A DNA stretch of 64,000 bases from Longimicrobiales bacterium. Lineage in GTDB: Bacteria; Gemmatimonadota; Gemmatimonadetes; Longimicrobiales; Gaopeijiaceae. The notes below the pieces were generated by a model. That model was not told where the DNA came from. It saw nothing but the letters and a program-made list of their open reading frames with translations, and did not search any database. The stretch spans positions 2,304,001 to 2,368,000 of the forward strand of contig CBDAON010000004.1 of the NCBI GenBank assembly GCA_965198065.1, given 5' to 3'. The translations under genes and the position numbers were made by a program. Positions 28,403 through 51,985 of the stretch are shown here, in pieces; within the stretch, counting starts at the first letter, position 1, and each line of letters opens with the position of its first letter.

Positions 28403-28475
28403 GCGGGCGTAGCTCAGTTGGTAGAGCATCAGCTTCCCAAGCTGAGGGTCGCCGGTTCGAGCCCGGTCGCCCGCT
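28403..28475 (+). tRNA. tRNA-Gly (anticodon CCC), CCA not encoded
   Basis: Acceptor stem GCGGGCG/CGCCCGC, D-arm AGCTCAGTTGGTAGAGC, anticodon arm TCAGC-TTCCCAA-GCTGA, T-loop GGTTCGA. Confidence 0.96.
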
Positions 28476-28773
28476 TTGGGTGACCCCCCGATACCGCCGT
28501 CCCCCCGGCCGGCGTTTGACCGGCCTCTGAGCCTCTCTGAGCCACGCAGACCCACCGCGCGCGGACGACAACTCGTCGTTCGGCACCGAACTGGGACTTG
28601 CCCGCCGTGAACACGCTCCGGCTCCGCTCCGCCATGGGTCGGGCGAGTCTCGACGGCGCGGCGCTGGATGAAGGCCTGTACACTAGGTCTCGCCAAACCC
28701 GAACATGGACATTCAGTGGCCGACCGAACGCCTGACTGCGAACACTCGCTTATTTGAGGCCTAGCTCAGCCGC

Positions 28774-29661
28774 CTACAGGTTTCGGTTCGAAAACTCTGC
28801 TTCGTCCTTGGCACCTTGGTGGCATTCGGCCCGTCCGGCGGCGTTCGAAATCCGATCGCACAGCTGCTGGGTGCGTGCCAGGTCATGTTTGTAGTAGAAC
28901 ATCCCAATCTCTCCGATGTTCAGGTAGCAAAGACTGAAATGGGTGGCGGTGAGGCTGAGGCCTTCGCACGCAAGCGGCGCGGCCTGCTCATACGCGGCCT
29001 CCTCCAGCTCGAGGTAGTTCATGGCGTTCTGCATGAAGACGCCGCCGTCGCACCGGTGGCGCGCCTGCGCGGTCAGGAGTTCTTGGCAGTGTTCGAGCGA
29101 CTCCGTGATATCATGGTCGTGCTTGTACATGAGCCCATGCCCGACGCCGTGGACGCACGCGTCGTATCGTTGGGGATCGGTCAGGAGCCCGTCGCACAAG
29201 TGGGCTAGGTCGACGTCAGGCAACACGTGGTCGTGCGGGCCCGGCGTCTTGTCGCCGCCGATGGCGGACTCGACGACTCCGTGGTAGTACCCATTGCTGC
29301 AGACGCCCTCGCCGAGGAGGAACGTTCGAGTCAGGTCGTGCCGGTACTCGTAATGGAAGGCCGCGTGGCCGAAGTGGTGGGCGAATATGTGACAGTCGTC
29401 GATTGTTCCGTCCACGTCCAGACTGTGGAGTTGAAGCAGGAAGCCCCGCTGGTCGTCCGCCGCCAGCGCTTCTTCGAACAGCGGCTCCAGGCATGCAAGT
29501 TGCGCCGCGGTCGAATCTAAGACGACGCATTCGGCCAACGCGGCGAGACGCGGGTCAGTCGGGCTGGCCGCGCAGCCGGCCAGAAGGGCAGCGGACACCA
29601 CAAACAGGGTTGCCCCCGCCGCTCCGTTCCGACCGCAGAAACCGAACATGGTTTTGAGCAT
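28774..29661 (-). CDS. Cys/His-rich putative lipoprotein of unknown function
   Basis: Lipobox LAGC; repeated CH..AHHFGH, CSNGYYHG, CVHGVGHG, CDGGVFMQN motifs; AGGAGG RBS upstream. Confidence 0.75.
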   Translation of the reverse strand: MLKTMFGFCGRNGAAGATLFVVSAALLAGCAASPTDPRLAALAECVVLDSTAAQLACLEPLFEEALAADDQRGFLLQLHSLDVDGTIDDCHIFAHHFGHAAFHYEYRHDLTRTFLLGEGVCSNGYYHGVVESAIGGDKTPGPHDHVLPDVDLAHLCDGLLTDPQRYDACVHGVGHGLMYKHDHDITESLEHCQELLTAQARHRCDGGVFMQNAMNYLELEEAAYEQAAPLACEGLSLTATHFSLCYLNIGEIGMFYYKHDLARTQQLCDRISNAAGRAECHQGAKDEAEFSNRNL

Positions 29662-30137: not shown

Positions 30138-30314
30138 CCCCTCCCGGCTGCCCTCCCTACGACCGATCTCTGGAACCTCCCCTCCTGCCTCCGCCTCGAT
30201 GAGGGTTCGAGTCGAGCTCGAGCCCGTCCTGCCAGATCATCTAAGATACGTATGTACACGTAGATAAGTATCATCGCCGTGACCGTGACCTGCCCCGAAG
30301 AGCGGTACCACAAC

Positions 30315-31212
30315 CTATGTTAGTCCCAGCACCTGTGGAGGGCGGTGAAGGACGGGCATCCTCAGGAACCAGGGCGACGGCTTAATCGCCTCAGGGGCCG
30401 GGGGAAAGCCGCCGCAGGCGCTGTGGGGTCGGACGGTATCGTACTCGCGCCTCCATTGCTCGACCAGCACGGCCGCCTCCGCCAACGAGCAGAAGATCTC
30501 CCCGTTCAACAGCTCGTCCCTGAGCTTGCCGTTGAAGCTCTCGTTGTAGCCGTTCTCCCACGGGCTGCCCGGCTCGATAAAGAGCGTCTCGACGCCCACG
30601 CGCCCCAACCACCGCCGCACGGGCTTCGCGGTGAACTCCGGTCCGTTGTCCGACCTCAGATACTCGGGAGGGCCCGTGTCGGACGAACAGATCGTCCAGC
30701 ACCTCGAGCACGTCGTGCGAGCGGATCTTGCGAGCCACCACGATCGCCAGGCACTCCCTCGTGTGCTCGTCCAGCACTGTCAGCAGCTTCAGCGCACGCC
30801 CGTCGTGCGTCCTCGAGGCCACGAAGTCGTACGACCAGACGTGGCCCCGATACAGCGGCCTCAGCCGGATGCACGATCCGTCGTTGAGCCACAGCCGACC
30901 TCGCTTCGGCTGCCGCTCCGGGACCTTCAGCCCCTCCTGCCTCCAGATCCGCTCCACCCGCTTGTGCTTCACCCCCCAGCCCTCGATGCGGAGCGTGTCC
31001 GTGACGCGTCGCTAGCCGTAGCGGCCGAATCGACTCGCGAGTCGCACGATATCACCTCGGAGCGCCCCCTCGTCACTCGCCACTTTCCTCGCCCCGCGCT
31101 GGGTCGTGCGTGGCTGCCCGAGCACCCGGCACGCTCTCCTCTCCGACGCCCCGAGCTGCTGACGTACACGCACCACACAACGTCGTCGGCCCTCGGGGCT
31201 CAGAAGTTTCCC
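30315..31212 (-). pseudogene. IS3 transposase OrfB (DDE), disrupted
   Basis: SERRACR, RYG*RR (TAG at 31014-12), VWSYDF, frameshift near 30672 before SDNGPEF, PGSPWENGYNESFNGKLRDE. Confidence 0.85.
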
Positions 31213-31478
31213 TTGGCCGCTTCCTCCACGATCAGCTTGTCCAGTGTCAAGTCCGCCACTGCTCGCTTCAGGCGCCCGTTCTCGCGCTCGAGCTCCTTCA
31301 GGCGCCGTGCCTGGCTCACCTTCATCCCGCCGTACTCCCGCCTCCACCGGTAGTACGTCTGCTCGGTGATGCCGAGCTCCCCCCTGATCAGCTTCACGGA
31401 TTTGCCGCCGGCCAGACCGACCTCTGCCTCCCGCACTGCAGTGATGATCTGCTCCGGAGTGTGTCGCTTCCTTCCCAT
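31200..31478 (-). CDS. IS3 transposase OrfA (HTH)
   Basis: MGRKRHTPEQII..TYYRWRREYGG..LKELERENGRLKRAVADL; G-GGA-AAC -1 slippery heptamer at 31212-31206. Confidence 0.88.
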   Translation of the reverse strand: MGRKRHTPEQIITAVREAEVGLAGGKSVKLIRGELGITEQTYYRWRREYGGMKVSQARRLKELERENGRLKRAVADLTLDKLIVEEAAKGNF

Positions 31479-31847
31479 CCTGACCTCCTCGCTGAAAAGC
31501 TTCGGACCAGGTCGATCCTAACATTGCACCTGGTCTCGTTTCAGCGGGTCAGGTCATTTCAGGGGGTCAGGTCAACCGAACCGTAATTATAGTGTGACCG
31601 TAAGTACCTAGAACGTCGTACTAATCGTGAAGAATTGTAGACTGGACCTCCATACTTGATTGCGAATAAGCTCTTAGTAATCCTGATGGCATTCGTAAGG
31701 CTTGACACGACTCTTAGTACGGTCCCAAGTTGGTCGCATATCAGCCACGCACCTGACGCACTTCCGCACCTAACGAGGTTCAGGAAGGGTGCAGGTGCGG
31801 TGTACTGGGATAGTAAAGTAATGATTCCGAAGAGAGGAGGAGAGGCG

Positions 31848-34800
31848 ATGAGATCGCAACCGCATGTTTGGAGGAGGGGCGCGCTCATAGCGCTGCTGCT
31901 GGGCTGGGCATCGCAAGCAGGCGCGCAGCAGACGGGAACCGTGACGGGACGGGTACTCGATGAGACGGGGTCACCGCTACCGGTGGTGCAGGTCACGATC
32001 ACGGATCTGAGCGTCGGGGTTCTGTCGCAGCAGAACGGTACGTACACGCTGCAAAACGTGCCGGTGGGCACGCACGCGCTGACGGCGCAGCGTCTGGGCT
32101 ACCGCGTGGTAACCCAGAACGTGACGGTGACGGCAGGCGGAGCCGCGACGGCGGACTTCGAGCTAGGGCAGATCGCGCTGGCGCTGGACGCGGTGGTGGT
32201 GACGGGAACGGCGGGGGGCACGCAGCGTCGAGCGATCGGGAACGTGGTAACGCAGGTGCAGGCGGCGGCGGTCACGGAGTCAATGCCGGTCACGAACATG
32301 GTCGAAATGCTGGGAGGCCGTGCGCCGGGGCTCCAGTTCCAGCGAACCACGGGAGTGGTGGGCGAGGGCTCGGCGATCCGGATTCGCGGCGTCGGGAGTG
32401 TGACGCTGGGCTCGCACCCGCTCATCTTCATTGACGGGATCCGGGCCGACAATCGAACGAACGCTGGCCCCAATGGGTCCTCGGCGAGCGCGCTGGACGA
32501 CATCAATGCGAACGACATCGAGAGCATCGAGATCATCAAGGGCCCGGCCGCCGCGACGCTCTACGGCACCGAGGCCTCGGAGGGCGTGATCCAGATCATC
32601 ACGAAGCGGGGCGCGCAGGGAGCGCCGCAGTTCGACTTCGCGGTGCACCAGGGGATCCGCTTCATGCGGGACCCGGCCGGGCAGATCGGCACGCTTTTCG
32701 GGTGCCGTTCGACATCCAGCCCGCCGTGCCCGGTGGCAGACATCTTCGAGTACAACCCGGTGGACGAGGCGAAATGGTACATCGACAGGATCCACGGCCC
32801 CTTGGGGACCTCCGGTATCTACCCAGGCGGGCAGACCGAGTGGAACGAATGGCCGTGCGACCAGCTGTTCTGCAACGGTCACCTGGAGACCTACACGCTG
32901 AGCATCCGGGGCGGCACGGATAACCTGCGCTACTTCGTCTCGGGCGAGTTCCTGGGCGACGAAGGGGTGGTCCCCTGGAACTGGCAAGATCGGACGAACG
33001 TGCGGGTGAACCTGAACATGCTGCTCACGCCCAACCTGTCGCTGGACGTCTCCACGGGGTACGTCAGCGGCTACACGCGGTTCGCCGATACCCCAAGCGA
33101 GGGCGATGTCTTCGACGACATGCAGTGGGGCAAGGGCTACTGCCTCATACGGATCAACCCGGACGCCTGCACGCGTCAGGGCGGATTCCAGGAACGCAGC
33201 CCGGGGGACATGTGGTCCATAGAGAACACCCGCGAGTGGGACCGCTTCATCGGGAGCTTCACGGCCCAGCACATCTTCCGGGAATTCCTGACCCAACGCT
33301 TCATCTTCGGGATCGACAACACCTGGGAGATCAACCGCAACTACTTCCCCCTGGATCCGGTCTCGCCGCCCTACCGGAACGCGCAGGCTGGGGCGATCCG
33401 CTACGACCGGCCGAACGTCTCGAACATAACGCTGGACTACGCGGCCAGCGCCCGGACGCAGCTGAACGACGCCTTCAGCCTTAACACGTCGGTCGGGGTG
33501 CAGTACTACGAGCATCTGACGGAGACCTTCCGGAACGAGGGACGCGGCTTCGCGCTCCCGGTGCAGACCACGGTCAACCAGACGCCGGTCTCCTCGCTCT
33601 CGGTCGTCTACACGTACGTGCAGAACAAGTCGCTCGGCGCGTACATCCAGGAAGAGATCGGCTGGAACGACAGGGCGTTCCTCACGGTGGCCGTGCGCGC
33701 GGACGACAACTCGGCGTTCGGCGCCAACCTCGACGCCCAGTACTACCCGAAGGTGTCGGCGACGTGGGTGATCTCGGAGGAGCCGTTCTGGAACATCCCG
33801 CTGGTGAACACGCTGAGGCTTCGCTCGGCGATGGGTCAGGCGGGTCGCCAGCCGAACACGTTTGCCGGGCAGACGACCTGGCAATCGTATACGGGGCCGG
33901 GTGGAGCGGGTGCGGTTCGCCCGCTGTCGCCGGGCAATCCCGGCATCGGCCCGGAGGTGAGCACCGAGATCGAAGCGGGCTTCGACATCGCGATCCTGAA
34001 CGACCGCATCTCCGGCGAGTTCACCTACTTCCAGCGGACGACCAAGGACGCGCTCTTGAACGCGCCATTCGCGCCGAGTTCCGCAGGAGTCTCGCCGACC
34101 GCACGAGGTGTTTCTTTGACTCCCCTTCCTTCGGGTCCTTCGGGCACGGACGCCCGTGACCTGCGGCGGATGGATACCTGGGGAGGTCCTTCTTTCGGTT
34201 CCCTTCCTCCGACCTTGGCAGCCAGTCACCCGCCGCCGGGCACGACGATCGCCCGTAACCTGGGGCAGATCGACAACTGGGGCTGGGAGGCGAGCGTGAA
34301 CGCGCGCCTGATGGACCGGCAGAACGTGTCGCTCGACCTGACCGTGAACACCGACCACATCGGCAACGAGATCAAGGACCTCGGGGACTTCCCGGGGACC
34401 ACGAGCATCCAGGTCGGCTTCCCCTACCCCAACGACCAAACTCGTTACCGTGTCGTGAGCTGGAGTGACGAGCTCGACGAGTTCGGCCTGCCCGTAGAGG
34501 TCTTGTGCGAAGCTGGGACCGGGCCCGACAACCTCCGCCCGGGCGGCGAAATCGTGAACTGTAACGACGTGCGAGGCCGGCGGATGTTGCTCGGCCCCTC
34601 ATACTACACGTACACGTTCAGCCTCGTGCCGACGCTCACGCTCTACAACAACCTCCGGATCTTCGCCGTGGCGCAGGGCATGTACGGCAAGACGGGGAGC
34701 GAGTCGCAGGTGGGCTGGGGCCAACGCTACAACAACGGTTACTGCTCTCAGGCGCTGGGTGGGGATCCGGCCTGCATCGAGTGGCTGGTGCGTAACTGGG

Positions 34801-35096
34801 ACGGCGAGTTCCCGGATGACCGGCATCAGGACGACTTCGACGCGGACTTCTGGAAGCTCCGGGAAGTCGGGGTCCAGTACGATCTGCCGCAGGCCTGGAT
34901 CCAGAGAACCGGCGCGAGCCGGGCATCGCTGGGCTTCGCGGCCCGGGAGATTGGGACCATCTGGCGGGCGCAGGATACCGTTGGTGACACCAAGGCCGGG
35001 GCGCCCGGAAGGCACATCCCGGACTCGGAGTCCGACGGGCTCTACAAGCTGCCGGGGATCGCATCGTTGACCGCCACCATGAGGGTCACCTTCTAA
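31848..35096 (+). CDS. SusC/RagA-like TonB-dependent outer membrane receptor, copy 1
   Basis: Signal peptide, carboxypeptidase-regulatory-like N-domain, VVVTG, plug motif DIESIEIIKGPAAATLYG, C-terminal Phe; followed by a SusD-like gene. Confidence 0.9.
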   Translation: MRSQPHVWRRGALIALLLGWASQAGAQQTGTVTGRVLDETGSPLPVVQVTITDLSVGVLSQQNGTYTLQNVPVGTHALTAQRLGYRVVTQNVTVTAGGAATADFELGQIALALDAVVVTGTAGGTQRRAIGNVVTQVQAAAVTESMPVTNMVEMLGGRAPGLQFQRTTGVVGEGSAIRIRGVGSVTLGSHPLIFIDGIRADNRTNAGPNGSSASALDDINANDIESIEIIKGPAAATLYGTEASEGVIQIITKRGAQGAPQFDFAVHQGIRFMRDPAGQIGTLFGCRSTSSPPCPVADIFEYNPVDEAKWYIDRIHGPLGTSGIYPGGQTEWNEWPCDQLFCNGHLETYTLSIRGGTDNLRYFVSGEFLGDEGVVPWNWQDRTNVRVNLNMLLTPNLSLDVSTGYVSGYTRFADTPSEGDVFDDMQWGKGYCLIRINPDACTRQGGFQERSPGDMWSIENTREWDRFIGSFTAQHIFREFLTQRFIFGIDNTWEINRNYFPLDPVSPPYRNAQAGAIRYDRPNVSNITLDYAASARTQLNDAFSLNTSVGVQYYEHLTETFRNEGRGFALPVQTTVNQTPVSSLSVVYTYVQNKSLGAYIQEEIGWNDRAFLTVAVRADDNSAFGANLDAQYYPKVSATWVISEEPFWNIPLVNTLRLRSAMGQAGRQPNTFAGQTTWQSYTGPGGAGAVRPLSPGNPGIGPEVSTEIEAGFDIAILNDRISGEFTYFQRTTKDALLNAPFAPSSAGVSPTARGVSLTPLPSGPSGTDARDLRRMDTWGGPSFGSLPPTLAASHPPPGTTIARNLGQIDNWGWEASVNARLMDRQNVSLDLTVNTDHIGNEIKDLGDFPGTTSIQVGFPYPNDQTRYRVVSWSDELDEFGLPVEVLCEAGTGPDNLRPGGEIVNCNDVRGRRMLLGPSYYTYTFSLVPTLTLYNNLRIFAVAQGMYGKTGSESQVGWGQRYNNGYCSQALGGDPACIEWLVRNWDGEFPDDRHQDDFDADFWKLREVGVQYDLPQAWIQRTGASRASLGFAAREIGTIWRAQDTVGDTKAGAPGRHIPDSESDGLYKLPGIASLTATMRVTF

Positions 35097-35128
35097 ACGC
35101 CATCGGAGTAACCGAGATCGGCGACGTC

Positions 35129-35170
35129 ATCGGCGGCACGGGGCCAGCAGCAACGCCCTGTGCCGCCGAT
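35129..35170 (+). other. Intergenic hairpin between susC and susD (second copy at 40379-40415)
   Basis: ATCGGCGGCACGGG...CCCTGTGCCGCCGAT inverted repeat; stem kept and loop changed in copy 2. Confidence 0.7.
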
Positions 35171-35200
35171 TGGCGCTCCGCGAGATCAAGAGGAACCAAC

Positions 35201-36721
35201 ATGCGCAAGAACACAAACGTTAGAACTAGGCAGAGAGGAGGGGCGCTCCGGGGCCTGATCCTCACGCTCTCCCTCGGCGCTCTGGGCGCGCTCACCGCCT
35301 GCGATCTCGACTCACTGCTCGAGGTGGAGGCTCCCGACCAGATCACCGCAGGCGCCCTCGAGGACTCGGGCGCGGCCGGCCTGCTCGTCAACTCGATCAT
35401 CGCGCACTTCGAGTGCGGCTATTCGGGCTTCCTGTACGACGAGGCCGGCAAGTCCGATACGTTCGATCGCATTGCCGGGGCCGGCGCGGGCGGAGGTTCG
35501 GAGGGCTACGGCAACAGCACGGTGAGCACCGCAATAGGATTGTGTTCTGGCCCTGGCATCGGATACACCTGGGCAGGATCCATCCAGCTCGCACGCGGCA
35601 TGGGGATGCGCACCTACGAGGACCTGACGGGCTGGACAGACCAGCAAGTCGCGGGTGACCGGGAGAAGCTCCAGGCGACCGCGGCGCTCTACGCTGGGGC
35701 GGCCCTGGGCCTCTTTGGCGAGTTCTTCTGTGAGACCGCCATCGACATTGGGCCCCTCATGACCCAGGACGAGACGCTCGCCCTGGCCGAGGAGTGGATC
35801 AACACGGCCCTCGGCCACATCGCCAACACCGGCGACTTCGAGCTCGAGCACGGCGCGACGACCAGCATCGAGACCCTGGCCTACGGGCTTCGCGCCCGTA
35901 TCCGCTGGGCTCGAGGGACTCCAGGGTCCACCTTCTGGGACGGCGCCCGGGCCGACGCGCTTCGCGTGCCTCAGGGCTACACGGCCTGGGTGGTCCGGGA
36001 GAACAGCCCCACGCGGCAAAACAAGGTCTACGAGGTCGCAACCGACATCGGCGTTTCGGTCGTGATGGGACCCTTCACCCACTGGGTGGGGCCGCCCAAT
36101 CCGGTGACCGGCCTGACCTGGCCCAACCCCATCCCCTTCACCGGATACCTTGATCTCGGCATCATGCCCGACGGCCGCGTCATCAGCGAGGACCAATACC
36201 CCATCACGACGACCGGCTCTCCGGGCGCTATCCCGGATCCTCGCGTCGTCACCCGGATCCAGAAGATCCAGGGGCCCGACCCCGGGCCGGTACCGGTCAA
36301 GTATACGGCCCCCGACGACGACATGCCCTTCGTCAGCTGGAACGACATGTGGCTCATCCGTGCCGAGATCGACGGCGGCCAGGCGGCCATCGACCTGGTC
36401 AACGAGCTTCGGGTCGCGCGTGGGTTGCCCATCGTCACGTACGCCAATCCGGCCGACGCCGATCAGATCCTGGACATGATCATCGAGGAGCGCCGCCGCG
36501 ACCTGTGGCTCGAGGGCCGCTTCTGGGGCACCAAGATCCAGCACACCGACCGCCTCTGGTTCCCGCGCTCTTTCGGCTCTTCGCTGTTCCAGGGCTTCCC
36601 CTACTACGGGGCCGTCACCCTGATCATGGCTGAAAACGAGTACGAGCTGAACCCCAACTTAAGCCTCGCCGACCGCGCCACCGGGTGCGTTGACTCCAAG
36701 ATGCCCACGGTGGTCGACTGA
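35201..36721 (+). CDS. SusD/RagB-like lipoprotein
   Basis: Lipobox LTAC, LIRAE, VNELR, IIEERRRDLWLEGRFW SusD C-terminal motif. Confidence 0.88.
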   Translation: MRKNTNVRTRQRGGALRGLILTLSLGALGALTACDLDSLLEVEAPDQITAGALEDSGAAGLLVNSIIAHFECGYSGFLYDEAGKSDTFDRIAGAGAGGGSEGYGNSTVSTAIGLCSGPGIGYTWAGSIQLARGMGMRTYEDLTGWTDQQVAGDREKLQATAALYAGAALGLFGEFFCETAIDIGPLMTQDETLALAEEWINTALGHIANTGDFELEHGATTSIETLAYGLRARIRWARGTPGSTFWDGARADALRVPQGYTAWVVRENSPTRQNKVYEVATDIGVSVVMGPFTHWVGPPNPVTGLTWPNPIPFTGYLDLGIMPDGRVISEDQYPITTTGSPGAIPDPRVVTRIQKIQGPDPGPVPVKYTAPDDDMPFVSWNDMWLIRAEIDGGQAAIDLVNELRVARGLPIVTYANPADADQILDMIIEERRRDLWLEGRFWGTKIQHTDRLWFPRSFGSSLFQGFPYYGAVTLIMAENEYELNPNLSLADRATGCVDSKMPTVVD

Positions 36722-36762
36722 GCTCAGCAGGGGGCTAGAGGAAAAGAGTCGAACTGAACGGC

Positions 36763-36800
36763 CGACGGGCCCGTGCGACCAGCGTCGCGCGGGCCCGTCG
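36763..36800 (+). terminator. GC-rich hairpin after susD (terminator or stabiliser; second copy at 40730-40771)
   Basis: CGACGGGCCCGTGCGAC-CAGC-GTCGCGCGGGCCCGTCG; only a weak U-tail. Confidence 0.6.
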
Positions 36801-37106
36801 CTTATGGGGGCGATCCCCCCGCCTCTCTCTTCTGCCCGCCTGGCGGTCATTCGCCTCGTTCAAATGATGATGCTGATCGGGAATTGATATCCGCATTACT
36901 ACTGTTATATATTAGGTACCTTAGATGAAGACGACTTAGCATCAATTGTACACACATCCTCGTAGATAGAGTGTGGACGTCTGATGATGACTCTTGACAT
37001 TCCTCATCGTAGAGTAGCAGTTTCTGCCGATGACCAACCTTAGGGCGACCGCAGTTTAGCTTCGGAGCGTAGGTCTGTTCACTCGGCGAGATGAGGAGGA
37101 GAGGCG

Positions 37107-40100
37107 ATGAGATCGCAACCGCATGTTTGGAGGAGGGGCGCGCTCATAGCGCTGCTGCTGGGCTGGGCATCGCAAGCAGGCGCGCAGCAGACGGGAACCG
37201 TGACGGGACGGGTACTCGATGAGACGGGGTCACCGCTACCGGTGGTGCAGGTCACGATCACGGATCTGAGCGTCGGGGTTCTGTCGCAGCAGAACGGTAC
37301 GTACACGCTGCAAAACGTGCCGGTGGGCACGCACGCGCTGACGGCGCAGCGTCTGGGCTACCGCGTGGTAACCCAGAACGTGACGGTGACGGCAGGCGGA
37401 GCCGCGACGGCGGACTTCGAGCTAGGGCAGATCGCGCTGGCGCTGGACGCGGTGGTGGTGACGGGAACGGCGGGGGGCACGCAGCGTCGAGCGATCGGGA
37501 ACGTGGTAACGCAGGTGCAGGCGGCGGCGGTCACGGAGTCAATGCCGGTCACGAACATGGTCGAAATGCTGGGAGGCCGTGCGCCGGGGCTCCAGTTCCA
37601 GCGAACCACGGGAGTGGTGGGCGAGGGCTCGGCGATCCGGATTCGCGGCGTCGGGAGTGTGACGCTGGGCTCGCACCCGCTCATCTTCATTGACGGGATC
37701 CGGGCCGACAATCGAACGAACGCTGGCCCCAATGGGTCCTCGGCGAGCGCGCTGGACGACATCAATGCGAACGACATCGAGAGCATCGAGATCATCAAGG
37801 GCCCGGCCGCCGCGACGCTCTACGGCACCGAGGCCTCGGAGGGCGTGATCCAGATCATCACGAAGCGGGGCGCGCAGGGAGCGCCGCAGTTCGACTTCGC
37901 GGTGCACCAGGGGATCCGCTTCATGCGGGACCCGGCCGGAAATATCGGCACGCTTTTCGGGTGCCGTTCGACATCCAGCCCGCCGTGCCCGGTGGCAGAC
38001 ATCTTCGAGTACAACCCGGTGGACGAGGCGAAATGGTACATCGACAGGATCCACGGCCCCTTGGGGACCTCCGGTATCTACCCAGGCGGGCAGACCGAGT
38101 GGAACGAATGGCCGTGCGACCAGCTGTTCTGCAACGGTCACCTGGAGACCTACACGCTGAGCATCCGGGGCGGCACGGATAACCTGCGCTACTTCGTCTC
38201 GGGCGAGTTCCTGGGCGACGAAGGGGTGGTCCCCTGGAACTGGCAAGATCGGACGAACGTGCGGGTGAACCTGAACATGCTGCTCACGCCCAACCTGTCG
38301 CTGGACGTCTCCACGGGGTACGTCAGCGGCTACACGCGGTTCGCCGATACCCCAAGCGAGGGCGATGTCTTCGACGACATGCAGTGGGGCAAGGGCTACT
38401 GCCTCATACGGATCAACCCGGACGCCTGCACGCGTCAGGGCGGATTCCAGGAACGCAGCCCGGGGGACATGTGGTCCATAGAGAACACCCGCGAGTGGGA
38501 CCGCTTCATCGGGAGCTTCACGGCCCAGCACATCTTCCGGGAATTCCTGACCCAACGCTTCATCTTCGGGATCGACAACACCTGGGAGATCAACCGCAAC
38601 TACTTCCCCCTGGATCCGGTCTCGCCGCCCTACCGGAACGCGCAGGCTGGGGCGATCCGCTACGACCGGCCGAACGTCTCGAACATAACGCTGGACTACG
38701 CGGCCAGCGCCCGGACGCAGCTGAACGACGCCTTCAGCCTTAACACGTCGGTCGGGGTGCAGTACTACGAGCATCTGACGGAGACCTTCCGGAACGAGGG
38801 ACGCGGCTTCGCGCTCCCGGTGCAGACCACGGTCAACCAGACGCCGGTCTCCTCGCTCTCGGTCGTCTACACGTACGTGCAGAACAAGTCGCTCGGCGCG
38901 TACATCCAGGAAGAGATCGGCTGGAACGACAGGGCGTTCCTCACGGTGGCCGTGCGCGCGGACGACAACTCGGCGTTCGGCGCCAACCTCGACGCCCAGT
39001 ACTACCCGAAGGTGTCGGCGACGTGGGTGATCTCGGAGGAGCCGTTCTGGAACATCCCGCTGGTGAACACGCTGAGGCTTCGCTCGGCGATGGGTCAGGC
39101 GGGTCGCCAGCCGAACACGTTTGCCGGGCAGACGACCTGGCAATCGTATACGGGGCCGGGTGGAGCGGGTGCGGTTCGCCCGCTGTCGCCGGGCAATCCC
39201 GGCATCGGCCCGGAGGTGAGCACCGAGATCGAAGCGGGCTTCGACATCGCGATCCTGAACGACCGCATCTCCGGCGAGTTCACCTACTTCCAGCGGACGA
39301 CCAAGGACGCGCTCTTGAACGCGCCATTCGCGCCGAGTTCCGCAGGAGTGGCGCCGACCGCACGAGGTGTTTCTTTGACTCCCCTTCCTTCGGGTCCTTC
39401 GGGCACGGACGCCCGTGACCTGCGGCGGATGGATACCTGGGGAGGTCCTTCTTTCGGTTCCCTTCCTCCGACCTTGGCAGCCAGTCACCCGCCGCCGGGC
39501 ACGACGATCGCCCGTAACCTGGGGCAGATCGACAACTGGGGCTGGGAGGCGAGCGTGAACGCGCGCCTGATGGACCGGCAGAACGTGACGTTCGACCTGA
39601 CCGTGAACGCCGACCACATCGGCAACGAGATCAAGGACCTCGGGGACTTCCCGGGGACCTCGGCCATCCAGGTCGGCTTCCCCTACCCCAACGAGGTGAA
39701 CTACTTCAACGTGGTCGGTTGGAGCGAAGAGTTCGACGAGTTCGGCGAGCCCCTAGAGGTCTACTGCGACGCCGGGACCGGGACCAACAACCTCTTCGTG
39801 GGCGGCGAGACCGTGAACTGTGACACGGTGCGAGGCGCCCGGCCCCTCGTCGGCCCCTCATACTACACGTACACGTTCAGCGTCGTGCCGACGCTCACGC
39901 TCTACAACAACCTCCGGATCTTCGCCGTGGCGCAGGGCATGTACGGCAAGATCGGCGACGAGTCCCAGGTCTCCTGGGGTTTCCGCTACAACAACGGCTA
40001 CTGCACCCAGGCCCTGGGCGGGGATCCGGCCTGCACGGAGTGGCTCGTGCGTAACCGGGACGGAATGTTCCGGGACGTCCGGATGCAGAACACGTTCAAG

Positions 40101-40358
40101 GCGGACTTCTGGAAGCTCCGGGAAGTCGGGGTCCAGTACGATCTGCCGCAGGCCTGGATCCAGAGAACCGGCGCGAGCCGGGCATCGCTGGGCCTCGCGG
40201 CCCGGGAGATCGCGGACCTCTGGCGGGCGCGGGATACCCTCGGTGTAAATAGGGAAGGGACGACGCCGGGAAGACACATTCCGGATTCGGAGTCCGACGG
40301 ACTCTACAAGCTACCGGGGGTCGCATCGTTGACCGCCACCATGAGGGTCACCTTCTAA
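37107..40358 (+). CDS. SusC/RagA-like TonB-dependent receptor, copy 2
   Basis: Near-identical to copy 1 (offset 5259 bp) to about 39585, then divergent in blocks. Confidence 0.9.
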   Translation: MRSQPHVWRRGALIALLLGWASQAGAQQTGTVTGRVLDETGSPLPVVQVTITDLSVGVLSQQNGTYTLQNVPVGTHALTAQRLGYRVVTQNVTVTAGGAATADFELGQIALALDAVVVTGTAGGTQRRAIGNVVTQVQAAAVTESMPVTNMVEMLGGRAPGLQFQRTTGVVGEGSAIRIRGVGSVTLGSHPLIFIDGIRADNRTNAGPNGSSASALDDINANDIESIEIIKGPAAATLYGTEASEGVIQIITKRGAQGAPQFDFAVHQGIRFMRDPAGNIGTLFGCRSTSSPPCPVADIFEYNPVDEAKWYIDRIHGPLGTSGIYPGGQTEWNEWPCDQLFCNGHLETYTLSIRGGTDNLRYFVSGEFLGDEGVVPWNWQDRTNVRVNLNMLLTPNLSLDVSTGYVSGYTRFADTPSEGDVFDDMQWGKGYCLIRINPDACTRQGGFQERSPGDMWSIENTREWDRFIGSFTAQHIFREFLTQRFIFGIDNTWEINRNYFPLDPVSPPYRNAQAGAIRYDRPNVSNITLDYAASARTQLNDAFSLNTSVGVQYYEHLTETFRNEGRGFALPVQTTVNQTPVSSLSVVYTYVQNKSLGAYIQEEIGWNDRAFLTVAVRADDNSAFGANLDAQYYPKVSATWVISEEPFWNIPLVNTLRLRSAMGQAGRQPNTFAGQTTWQSYTGPGGAGAVRPLSPGNPGIGPEVSTEIEAGFDIAILNDRISGEFTYFQRTTKDALLNAPFAPSSAGVAPTARGVSLTPLPSGPSGTDARDLRRMDTWGGPSFGSLPPTLAASHPPPGTTIARNLGQIDNWGWEASVNARLMDRQNVTFDLTVNADHIGNEIKDLGDFPGTSAIQVGFPYPNEVNYFNVVGWSEEFDEFGEPLEVYCDAGTGTNNLFVGGETVNCDTVRGARPLVGPSYYTYTFSVVPTLTLYNNLRIFAVAQGMYGKIGDESQVSWGFRYNNGYCTQALGGDPACTEWLVRNRDGMFRDVRMQNTFKADFWKLREVGVQYDLPQAWIQRTGASRASLGLAAREIADLWRARDTLGVNREGTTPGRHIPDSESDGLYKLPGVASLTATMRVTF

Positions 40359-40429
40359 GACACGAGATCGGCGACGTCATCGGCGGCACGGGGCCAGGAG
40401 CCCTGTGCCGCCGATTGGCGCTTCGCCCC

Positions 40430-40690
40430 GTCACCTACGTGAATCCGGCGGACGAGGAGCGCCGCCGCGACCTGTGGCTCGAGGGGCGCTTCTGGTCCAC
40501 CAAGATCCAGCACACCGACCGCCTCTGGTTCCCGCGCTCTTTCGGCTCTTCGCTGTTCCAGGGCTTCCCCTACTACGGGGCCGTCACCCTGCTCATGCCC
40601 GAGCAGGAGTACGGGCTGAATCCGAACTTCGGCCTCGAGGCCCGCGGCACCGGATGCGACACCACCAAGGCGCCCACGGTGGTCGACTGA
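40430..40690 (+). pseudogene. 3' remnant of a second susD
   Basis: VTYVNPAD-EERRRDLWLEGRFWSTKIQ..PTVVD* matches the susD C-terminus; about 1.25 kb of 5' sequence and 27 internal nt are missing. Confidence 0.88.
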
Positions 40691-40901
40691 GCCCTGCAGG
40701 GGGCTAGAGCAAAAGAGTCGAACTGAACGGCCCACGGGCCCGTGCGACCAGCGTCGCGCGGGCCCGTGGGCTATGGTGCAGCCCCGGCCTGAGACTGGGC
40801 TGTAGTGAACAGCTGAAGACAACAGGACCAACCCGCAGTACCGCCTGAAATTATCGGACACGGGAGCCTGTCCCGCAAGCAAGTCCTTTGCGGTCCGGAC
40901 C

Positions 40902-50755: not shown

Positions 50756-51163
50756 CTAGGGGTCGCCGACGGCGCTCAGGACCACGTCGCGCTTTCGGGC
50801 GCGGGTGTCGAAATCGAGCAGCACTACCTGTTGCCACGTGCCTAGCGGAACCCTCCCGTCAACGATCGGGAGGGCGAGGGAGGGGCCGACCAGGCTCGCG
50901 CGGACATGCGCGTGGCCGTTGTCGTCGCCCCAGGTCTCCTCGTGGACGTACGACGCATCCCGCGCAGCCAGACGCTCGAAGGCCGCCGCAAGGTCGTGCT
51001 CCGCGAGTCCCGGCTCGAACTCCGTGGTCGTGAGCGCGGCGGTCGACCCTACGACCATCGCCGCGGCGTGGCCGGTCCGGATCCCGGACGCCTGGACGGC
51101 CTCCTGAACGGGCTCGGTCAGGTCTACGACGTGGCCGTGACCGCGGGTTTTGACGGCTCGCAT
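50756..51163 (-). CDS. yjbQ: YjbQ/UPF0047-family protein
   Basis: [38 protein letters not shown]. Confidence 0.85.
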
Positions 51164-51985
51164 GGGGCTCTCCGGATCCCCGGCGGGCCCCCTGTCAGGC
51201 GTCCCTCGGGGAGAGTGTTGTGGGCTTGACGCGCGGCCTCGCTCGGGCAGACGGCCCCGAACCGCCGCTCCCGCGAATGATACTCGCCCACCGCGGCCTC
51301 GAGCGCGACCGGGCCGAAGTCGGGCCAGAGAACGGGAGAGAACACGAGCTCCGCGTACGCGCATTCCCAGAGCAGGAAATCGCTCAGGCGGAGGCTCCCC
51401 TCCTGTACGGATCAGGAGGTCCACGTCCCCCACGGGTCCGCCGCCGTGGGTCGCCTCGCCAAGCATGTCGGCAAAGGAGCGCCGGGTGAGGGCCTCGGCC
51501 CCGCGAGCCCGCTCGGCGGCCCTCAGGATCGAATCGCGGGAAGAGTAGTCCACGGCCAGCCGCAGCTCGAGCGTCCGGCCGGCCGAGGTCGCTTGCTCGA
51601 TCTCCTCGATGGCCCGCCTCAGCGCGAAGCTCAGGCGATCCCTCCGGCCGATCACCCTGACGCGAACGCGCTCCTTGACGCAGCGCGCACTCTCGCGCCG
51701 CAAATAGGACCGGAAGAGGCGCATGAGCGACTGTACCTCATCGGTGGGACGGCGCCAGTTGTCCGATGAGAAGGCGTATAGCGTAAGGGTGCCGATCCCG
51801 AGATCGGGGGCCGCCTCGACGCTTCGGCGCACAGCCTCCGCTCCCGCGCGGTGACCGGCGGTACGCGGAAGACCCCTGGCCTTGGCCCACCGTCCATTCC
51901 CATCCATGATGATGGCCACGTGGAGGCCGGCCTCCGGCCCATCCTCGCCGCCTCCCGTCGCTCGGCCCAAAGCACTTTGGATCAC
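51124..51985 (-). CDS. uppS: Undecaprenyl-diphosphate synthase-like cis-prenyltransferase; one extra base near 51389
   Basis: [30 protein letters not shown]; then in the shifted frame [26 protein letters not shown]. Confidence 0.85.

What the first reader, a model, noticed from the sequence alone, without database searches (positions are those of the whole stretch)
31834..40771. Tandem susC pair with a constant 5' part and loop-restricted variable 3' cassette: candidate receptor-diversification locus
Seen: identity between the copies starts exactly at the RBS (31834 vs 37093), and the upstream regions are unrelated. Over the next ~2.5 kb I found only two small mismatch clusters (32681-84, 34091-92). 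From about 34327 the copies alternate between DNA-identical blocks (e.g. YTYTFS..NLRIFAVAQGMYGK, DFWKLREVGVQYDLPQ..RASLG) and heavily substituted blocks (NDQTRYRVVSW vs NEVNYFNVVGW; WDGEFPDDRHQDDFD vs RDGMFRDVRMQNTFK). Known: Bacteroides shuffle susC/susD 3' cassettes behind shared 5' segments using invertases. Inference: here the copies are direct repeats with no recombinase in the window, so gene conversion or homologous recombination may swap 3' loop cassettes to change substrate or phage-receptor specificity.
Basis: partly seen in the sequence, partly recalled or inferred. Interest (0 to 1): 0.75.

Follow-up and report, generated by a model that had tools for sequence, protein, structure and literature searches.

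The report
Tandem SusC pair under gene conversion
Two neighbouring outer-membrane transporter genes of an uncultured bacterium are almost letter-identical over their first three quarters, likely because they repeatedly overwrite each other by ordinary gene conversion, while three predicted surface loops at the end stay different; this is a clear case of a known process, not an enzyme-driven cassette switch.

Summary
In detail: 5 differences in 2,495 bp, then 116 in the last 256 codons. A second assembly of the same species holds both proteins. In residues 1-826 the copies group by strain (6 of 10 variable sites, none by copy). In residues 827-1082 they group by copy (42 of 59 sites, none purely by strain). 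That is segmental concerted evolution, as in Helicobacter homA/homB. An AlphaFold model puts the boundary just after hinge loop L8. The differences sit in loops L9-L11 (47 of 162, against 8 of 94 elsewhere), and so do the silent ones (22 of 112 against 1 of 81), so the 3' strands are also homogenised. No recombinase gene lies in the window, both susC genes are full length, and no wholesale 3' swap is seen, so this is not a shufflon. Short-tract exchange does reshuffle the loops: a near-clonal third strain has a mosaic L9-L10. A three-unit array in another genus shows a similar signature. Reads were not examined. Verdict: new member of a known kind, of moderate interest.

The parts
31834..34328 (+). 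Homogenised 5' tract of susC1: RBS, signal peptide, N-terminal extension, plug, predicted strands 1-16 and loops L1-L8
   Evidence: 5 of 2,495 nt differ from copy 2; regions from the model
31848..35096 (+). susC1, SusC/RagA-type TonB-dependent transporter, 1,082 aa
   Evidence: TIGR04056 368.8 bits vs cut-off 368.25; plug and N-terminal extension domains; 22-strand model, pLDDT 86.1; top fold matches BT2264, RagA, ButC
34329..35096 (+). Copy-specific 3' part of susC1: strands 17-22 nearly homogenised, loops L9-L11 diverged
   Evidence: 47 of 162 loop vs 8 of 94 non-loop residues differ; silent differences 22 of 112 vs 1 of 81
35201..36721 (+). susD1, intact SusD-like lipoprotein, 506 aa; the only intact susD of the pair
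   Evidence: PF07980 21.8 bits, below the 23.1 cut-off; close homologues named SusD/RagB
36759..36800 (+). Hairpin (likely terminator) closing unit 1
   Evidence: self-inverted match; counterpart of the 40730-40771 hairpin
36812..37092 (+). AT-richer upstream region unique to susC2, with a promoter-like site at 36884-36913
   Evidence: GC 0.49; 1 sigma-70-like match found vs 1.4 expected by chance, so weak
37093..39587 (+). Homogenised 5' tract of susC2
37107..40358 (+). susC2, full-length paralogue, 1,083 aa, with its own RBS and ATG
   Evidence: TIGR04056 362.9 bits, just under the cut-off
40427..40690 (+). susD2 remnant: 3' end only, start and ~410 codons deleted, plus a 27-bp internal deletion; shares a 94-bp identical run with susD1
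40730..40771 (+). Hairpin (likely terminator) closing unit 2
   Evidence: 19-nt arms, 95% complementary
31557..31833 (+). AT-richer upstream region unique to susC1, bounded by an IS
   Evidence: GC 0.48

Best explanation
Two old tandem susC-susD units likely undergo recurrent RecA-type gene conversion or unequal crossing-over, which keeps the first 2.5 kb of the two susC genes nearly identical within each strain while the predicted surface loops L9-L11 stay as two distinct types. Shown: the sequence mosaic; strain-wise grouping of the 5' part and copy-wise grouping of the 3' part in two assemblies; silent-site homogenisation of the 3' strands; loss of susD2; an intact recA. Inferred: at least one long conversion tract in each lineage since the strains split; short tracts that also move residues between the 3' parts; and selection, helped by the mismatch barrier, that spares L9-L11. 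More speculative: because the homogenised part includes both SusD-binding hinge loops (L7, L8), SusC2 would use SusD1 as its lid, giving two barrels with different entrance loops and one lid.
For: Second assembly B (proteins P0124 and P0122 on a 3,026,644-bp contig). In aa 1-820, A1-A2 differ at 2 and B1-B2 at 1, but A1-B1 at 7 and A2-B2 at 6. In aa 821-1083, A1-B1 differ at 6 and A2-B2 at 15, but A1-A2 at 55 and B1-B2 at 52. Of 10 variable 5' sites, 6 are strain-shared, 4 private and 0 copy-specific. Of 59 variable 3' sites, 42 are copy-specific. Trees: 5' (A1,A2),(B1,B2) with support 59 and 79; 3' ((A1,B1),C),(A2,B2) with support 97-100. Outgroups place shared derived residues in both lineages: B 165N, 623T, 652M; A 458I, 822M. 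Silent differences are 1 of 81 codons in the 3' strands and turns vs 22 of 112 in L9-L11, P = 6e-5, and they cluster near amino-acid changes (P = 0.002). Purifying selection alone cannot produce this. recA is intact. L7/L8 bind SusD, and L9/L10 line the entrance in ButC (PMC11467351, passages; 10.1101/755678, passages). The same segmental pattern is described for homA/homB and babA/babB (PMC2795765, passages). G188 carries a three-unit array of the same subfamily with dS 0.02-0.10 outside L9-L11 and dN/dS 1.5-2.0 in L9-L11.
Against: The 5' signal rests on 6 sites, and tree support there is modest (59, 79). In L9-L11 dN/dS is 0.60, below 1, so point-mutation positive selection is not shown for this pair. 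The longest-run test on silent sites was not significant (P = 0.14; sum-of-squares P = 0.024). RagA L9 also stays in contact with the lid, which weakens the shared-lid idea, since L9 is the most divergent loop. Expression of susC2 was not shown. Reads were not examined.
Confidence: 0.75

Rival explanations
1. Neutral version: the same conversion process, with no selection on the loops. One long tract happened to end at strand 17. Since then identity has bred further conversion in the 5' part, mismatches have shielded L9-L11, and susC2 is a lidless gene on its way to loss in a decaying, IS-rich genome.
For: susD2 carries two deletions, and a third susC scrap lies at 28557-28649. The neighbouring IS has 23 near-full matches among 78 BLAST hits. 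Three other paralogue pairs in this genome are also patchy (64-98% per 100 bp). mutS is present. dN/dS in L9-L11 is 0.60.
Against: Both susC2 genes are intact in two strains 1.44% apart (65 of 4,519 aa in 12 neighbours). Strands on both sides of each loop are homogenised while the loops persist. SusD1 (25 of 503) and the copy-2 3' part (15 of 263) differ between the strains more than the controls do (P = 1e-7 and 8e-6). The same loops are the most divergent in the G188 array.
Confidence: 0.3
2. Active diversification or reservoir system: copy 2 (and a lost third unit) serve as donors of L9-L11 tracts for the SusD-coupled copy 1, producing new receptor variants within populations under phage or substrate selection.
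For: Fragment P0123 comes from a strain that differs from B at only 3 of about 1,531 residues in four neighbours (frameshifted tails of two proteins left out). It differs from B1 at 20 of 229 residues, 17 of them in L9-L10; 8 match copy 2 and 11 are new. B2 carries the copy-1 residue at 6 sites where A2 differs.
Against: A1 and B1 are identical from residue 823 to 1029. Copy 2 has its own RBS, start and upstream region, unlike a silent cassette. Exchange appears to run both ways. The P0123 assembly has frameshifts, and the fragment could be a third paralogue rather than a changed copy 1.
Confidence: 0.2
3. Assembly or polishing collapse made two moderately different 5' parts look identical.
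For: Both genomes are metagenome assemblies, and reads were not examined.
Against: Two assemblies show the same step at nearly the same place. Each keeps private differences inside the tract (A: 279, 749; B: 626, 821). Strain-shared sites at codons 4 and 822 lie about 25 and 18 bp from copy-specific sequence, where any read resolves them. Collapse would imply a true A-B distance near zero in 820 aa against 1.44% in neighbours. Collapse cannot remove ~15% divergence.
Confidence: 0.07
4. Site-specific shufflon like B. thetaiotaomicron BT1032-53, driven by a recombinase encoded elsewhere.
For: The genome has 34 tyrosine-recombinase matches. SusC genes are frequent targets of programmed inversions (PMC9881135, passages).
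Against: None of the 34 lies in the window; the nearest is a fragment about 49 kb upstream. Both genes are full length and in direct orientation. The boundary is gradual and differs between strains (codon 828 in A, 821 in B). No conspicuous inverted repeat marks it among the 25 longest of 229 pairs.
Confidence: 0.03

Closest known systems
Segmental concerted evolution of Helicobacter pylori homA/homB and babA/babB (PMC2795765, abstract and passages; babA/babB as cited there)
   Same: Paralogous outer-membrane protein genes in which one segment groups by strain and another by gene, attributed to intragenomic gene conversion; allelic and mosaic variation in a surface segment.
   Different: Here the homogenised part is the 5' three quarters of a TonB-dependent transporter, the copies are adjacent direct repeats, the spared part is loops L9-L11, and the partner gene susD2 is lost.
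Bacteroides SusC/SusD shufflons (B. thetaiotaomicron BT1032-53; 10.1101/521070, passages)
   Same: Several susC-like genes in one locus with alternative 3' parts; possible change of surface receptor.
   Different: No tyrosine recombinase in the locus, no 5'-truncated silent susC, no short crossover site; each copy has its own 5' end, and the 5' ends are homogenised rather than moved.
SusCD/RagAB transporters (BT2264, RagA, ButC, BT1763; PMC11467351, PMC7782687, 10.1101/755678, passages)
   Same: N-terminal extension, plug, 22-strand barrel, downstream SusD-like lipoprotein.
   Different: About 17% identity; a likely Gemmatimonadota host (nearest named homologues); a 38-residue low-confidence insertion in L8; two susC genes for one intact susD; substrate unknown.
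Concerted evolution of prokaryotic paralogues in general (PMC6053082, passages)
   Same: [quoted passage not shown]
   Different: Partial-gene and short-term here; not a whole-gene, long-lasting case.

Membership tests
SusC/RagA TonB-dependent transporter | TIGR04056 score above cut-off | tested here: met
   copy 1 368.8 vs 368.25; copy 2 362.9, just under; signature TIGR04057 38 vs 46.2, under for both
SusC/RagA TonB-dependent transporter | N-terminal extension, plug, 22-strand barrel | tested here: met
   (barrel predicted, copy 1 only)
SusC/RagA TonB-dependent transporter | Cognate downstream susD | tested here: inconclusive
   copy 1 has an intact SusD-like gene (PF07980 below cut-off; named homologues); copy 2 has only a remnant
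Segmental concerted evolution (hom/bab type) | One segment more alike within strains than between strains | tested here: met
   6 of 10 variable 5' sites strain-shared, 0 copy-specific; two strains only
Segmental concerted evolution (hom/bab type) | Another segment groups by gene copy | tested here: met
   42 of 59 variable 3' sites
Segmental concerted evolution (hom/bab type) | Silent sites homogenised | tested here: met
   2 of 769 same-residue degenerate codons differ from residue 30 to 826; 1 of 81 in 3' strands vs 22 of 112 in L9-L11; this genome only
Segmental concerted evolution (hom/bab type) | RecA-dependent intragenomic exchange shown by experiment | not testable with these tools
   recA is intact; dependence untested
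Bacteroides SusC shufflon | Dedicated tyrosine recombinase in the locus | tested here: not met
   0 of 34 PF00589 matches in the window; no PF00239 match in the genome
Bacteroides SusC shufflon | 5'-truncated silent susC genes sharing one expressed 5' end | tested here: not met
   both genes full length with RBS and ATG
Bacteroides SusC shufflon | Short fixed crossover site flanked by repeats | tested here: not met
   boundary gradual and strain-dependent; nothing conspicuous there among the 25 longest inverted repeats
Bacteroides SusC shufflon | Alternative arrangements coexisting in a population | not tested
   needs reads
Silent-cassette antigenic variation (pilS/vlsE/msp2 type; definition recalled, from no call) | Promoterless partial donor cassettes, one-way transfer to one expression site | tested here: not met
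   copy 2 is a whole gene with its own upstream region; exchange appears two-way; only two such copies in the genome
Diversity-generating retroelement (definition recalled, from no call) | Differences confined to template adenines | tested here: not met
   differences involve all four bases in both copies (codon list); reverse transcriptase not searched

The most novel reading that the evidence does not exclude
A recombinase-free receptor-diversifying arrangement in a Gemmatimonadota SusC subfamily: tandem susC genes keep plug, barrel and SusD-binding hinge loops interchangeable by gene conversion, so that one SusD lid serves two barrels, while selection keeps entrance loops L9-L11 distinct and short conversion tracts remix them within populations. 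The G188 three-unit array would be a second, independent instance.
Probability: 0.25. Interest if true: 0.65.

Novelty: new member of a known kind. Interest (0 to 1): 0.38.

Why it matters
The process is textbook. The case is clean, however, and my searches found no paper describing gene conversion between susC genes (search listings only). It marks L9-L11 as the part of a SusC that resists homogenisation, which makes these loops the natural candidates for specificity or phage contact. The two proteins are also a ready-made loop-swap pair, identical in plug, L1-L8 and most strands. If SusC2 borrows SusD1, it would be a natural exception to one-to-one SusC-SusD pairing.

Tried and rejected
Habitat: 8 of 22 listed runs (4 studies) hold half or more of the words of 34000-37200. 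That shows the sequence exists in independent samples, not how it is arranged. Read-level testing remains open. DNA of strain B was not obtained: the genome and metagenome scans returned only relatives at 38-45% identity, and the one same-genus genome has no close orthologue. More 3' variants: a search of 147-469 aa proteins returned 13 hits, none above 71%. An intact SusD2 was not found among the 120 of 228 hits listed; P0142 (83% identical) ends like SusD1. The remnant peptide is not in the collection as an exact sequence. Generality: 20 stretches from 7 relatives showed no paralogue-paralogue match of at least 200 bp at 80%. Among 14 stretches from 8 further genomes, only G188 showed the pattern; the G214 pair looks like ordinary paralogues (dS 0.5-1.0, dN/dS 0.4-0.7), except for a more alike N-terminus. 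Generic loop variability as the cause of the loop bias: five hand-picked homologue pairs give 3' loop/non-loop ratios of 0.6-2.0 against 3.4 here. The L8 insertion as a mobile repeat: no other copy in the genome. No complex prediction was run, since a SusC-SusD pair exceeds the size limit and would pass by likeness to solved structures. Earlier-findings look-ups by place and by sequence were empty. No supplementary files were read; they could hold unreported susC conversion cases.
Full report
Setting. The window is G000:C4:2304001-2368000 of a 3.05-Mb, 4-contig genome, 87.6% complete. The nearest named homologues of the two proteins come from Gemmatimonadota, so the host is likely of that phylum; this is inferred. 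The genome is IS-rich: the element beside the locus has 23 near-full matches among 78 hits. The order is tRNA-Gly (28403-28475), a susC scrap, an unknown ORF, a broken IS, susC1, susD1, hairpin, unique upstream region, susC2, susD2 remnant, hairpin.

Observation. The repeat begins at the RBS and has an offset of 5,259 bp. It has 5 mismatches in 2,495 bp, then 116 nucleotide and 55 amino-acid differences in 256 codons. The upstream regions are unrelated (470 of 500 shuffles score as high). No other close copy exists in the genome; the next susC is 29-30% identical.

What the proteins are. Both are SusC/RagA-type TonB-dependent transporters. An AlphaFold2 model of copy 1 from 118 sequences (pLDDT 86.1) has 22 barrel strands, which I numbered from the secondary structure. 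Its best fold matches are BT2264, the dextran SusC, ButC and RagA, at about 17% identity, which does not tell the substrate. The identity boundary falls at strands 16/17, just after L8. Loops L1-L8 differ at 2 of 261 residues. In the 3' part 47 of 162 loop residues differ against 8 of 94 others (P = 7e-5). In solved SusCD complexes L7 and L8 hold the SusD lid, and L9 and L10 are among the loops at the entrance (PMC11467351, passages). In RagAB, L9 also moves with the lid (10.1101/755678, passages); for Bt1763 the hinges are given as L6 and L7 (PMC7782687, passages).

The decisive test. The protein cluster holds both copies from a second assembly, B (P0124 and P0122, contig of 3,026,644 bp). 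B differs from this genome, A, at 65 of 4,519 residues in 12 neighbouring proteins. These 12 are the look-ups that returned a B member; of 20 queries, 6 were not in the collection, 1 had no B member and 1 was not a control. In residues 1-826, 6 of 10 variable sites are shared by both copies of one strain, 4 are private and none is copy-specific. In residues 827-1082, 42 of 59 are copy-specific and none is purely strain-specific. The trees agree. Outgroups indicate that shared derived residues arose in both lineages, so homogenisation happened at least once in each since the split (inference). Silent sites add independent evidence within A. They differ at 1 of 81 codons in the 3' strands and turns but at 22 of 112 in L9-L11 (P = 6e-5; dS 0.014 vs 0.37). 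Selection on protein cannot make that contrast, so the 3' strands are being overwritten too, and the loops are old islands. Their dN/dS is 0.60, which is high but no proof of positive selection. Against this reading: only two strains, B seen as protein only, 5' tree support of 59 and 79, and a non-significant longest-run test (P = 0.14).

Artefact. Reads were not examined, so this stays formally open. Collapse is unlikely for three reasons. Both assemblies show the same step. Both keep private differences inside the tract. Two strain-shared sites (codons 4 and 822) lie within about 25 bp of copy-specific sequence.

Is it diversifying? Partly. A1 and B1 are identical from residue 823 to 1029, so no wholesale swap is seen. 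But A2 and B2 differ at 15 of 263 3' residues, at 6 of which B2 has the copy-1 residue. SusD1 differs at 25 of 503. Both exceed the neighbour rate. A third assembly, C, is grouped by its contig length of 18,527 bp. It is 3 of about 1,531 residues from B in four neighbours, with the frameshifted tails of two proteins left out. Its SusC fragment P0123 differs from B1 at 20 of 229 residues: 17 in L9-L10, 8 matching copy 2 and 11 new. That is either a converted copy 1 or a third paralogue, and the assembly is error-prone.

Generality. Of 301 family genomes sampled, 30 match SusD1 at E of 1e-100 or better. G188, in another genus, has three tandem units at 86-89% DNA identity, with dS 0.02-0.10 outside L9-L11, 46-56% amino-acid difference in L10-L11 and dN/dS 1.5-2.0 in L9-L11. 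That is a similar signature, but spread along the gene. The G214 pair and the paralogues of 7 other relatives do not show it.

Mechanism. The most likely one is RecA-type conversion or unequal crossing-over between direct repeats (recA intact; mutS present), with L9-L11 spared by selection and by mismatch density. A crossover in the shared tract would excise 5,259 bp, remove the only intact susD and leave SusC2 lidless; selection against that product would explain why both strains keep both copies (inference). Because both hinge loops are in the shared part, SusC2 may use SusD1; this is untested.

Comparison. It works like, and meets the tested features of, segmental concerted evolution as described for homA/homB and babA/babB (PMC2795765, abstract and passages; PMC6053082, passages). 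It is not a Bacteroides-type shufflon, which has a tyrosine recombinase in the locus, 5'-truncated genes and a 7-bp crossover site (10.1101/521070, passages; PMC9881135, passages). I saw only the abstract of 10.64898/2026.09.16.752182 and it does not bear on the result. Search listings showed no paper on susC gene conversion (on the host group was also uninformative). Earlier notes of this scan record many similar cases in other genes; they are unchecked, but they suggest the process is common.

Verdict. The feature is real and well supported, a new member of a known kind. The open points are expression of susC2, a shared lid, and loop remixing within populations. Interest 0.38.

Noticed in passing
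window 34090-34215 and 39349-39474: Both susC copies carry a ~38-residue insertion in loop L8, absent from all 12 homologues aligned. It has GC3 25 of 46 against 896 of 1,006 elsewhere and pLDDT below 50, and contains a degenerate copy of the adjacent 'ARNLGQIDNWG' coding stretch. It is also present in strain B.
   Followed up: partly
window 28557-28649: Scrap of a further susC gene (two pieces, 94% and 80% alike, with an internal deletion) just after tRNA-Gly; possibly the relic of a third unit.
   Followed up: partly
window 30285-31556: Broken IS with HTH_Tnp_1 and rve domains (IS3-family label recalled), 277 bp upstream of the susC1 RBS; 23 near-full matches in the genome.
   Followed up: partly
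window 28774-29661 (-): 295-aa cysteine- and histidine-rich predicted lipoprotein-like ORF with no Pfam or NCBIfam match, conserved in five other assemblies.
   Followed up: no
L073/L074 (G188:C7:1822600-1839200): Three tandem susC-susD units of the same subfamily, 86-89% identical, with dN/dS of about 1 or above in most regions and L10-L11 about 50% different; a stronger candidate for diversifying selection than this window.
   Followed up: partly
G000:C4:2779500-2788000 and 2264600-2269700: Other tandem paralogue arrays in this genome (four copies of a secreted ~450-aa family; a pair of ~800-aa genes) with patchy 69-98% identity.
   Followed up: partly
L046 (G003:C320): A susC-susD unit with a second, 5'-truncated susD-like gene in opposite orientation immediately upstream of susC; possibly an inversion.
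   Followed up: no
window 50756-51985 (-): The undecaprenyl-diphosphate-synthase-like ORF (label recalled from its motifs) appears to leave frame after 'LIRTGGE' and runs into a second gene; pseudogene or sequence error.
   Followed up: no
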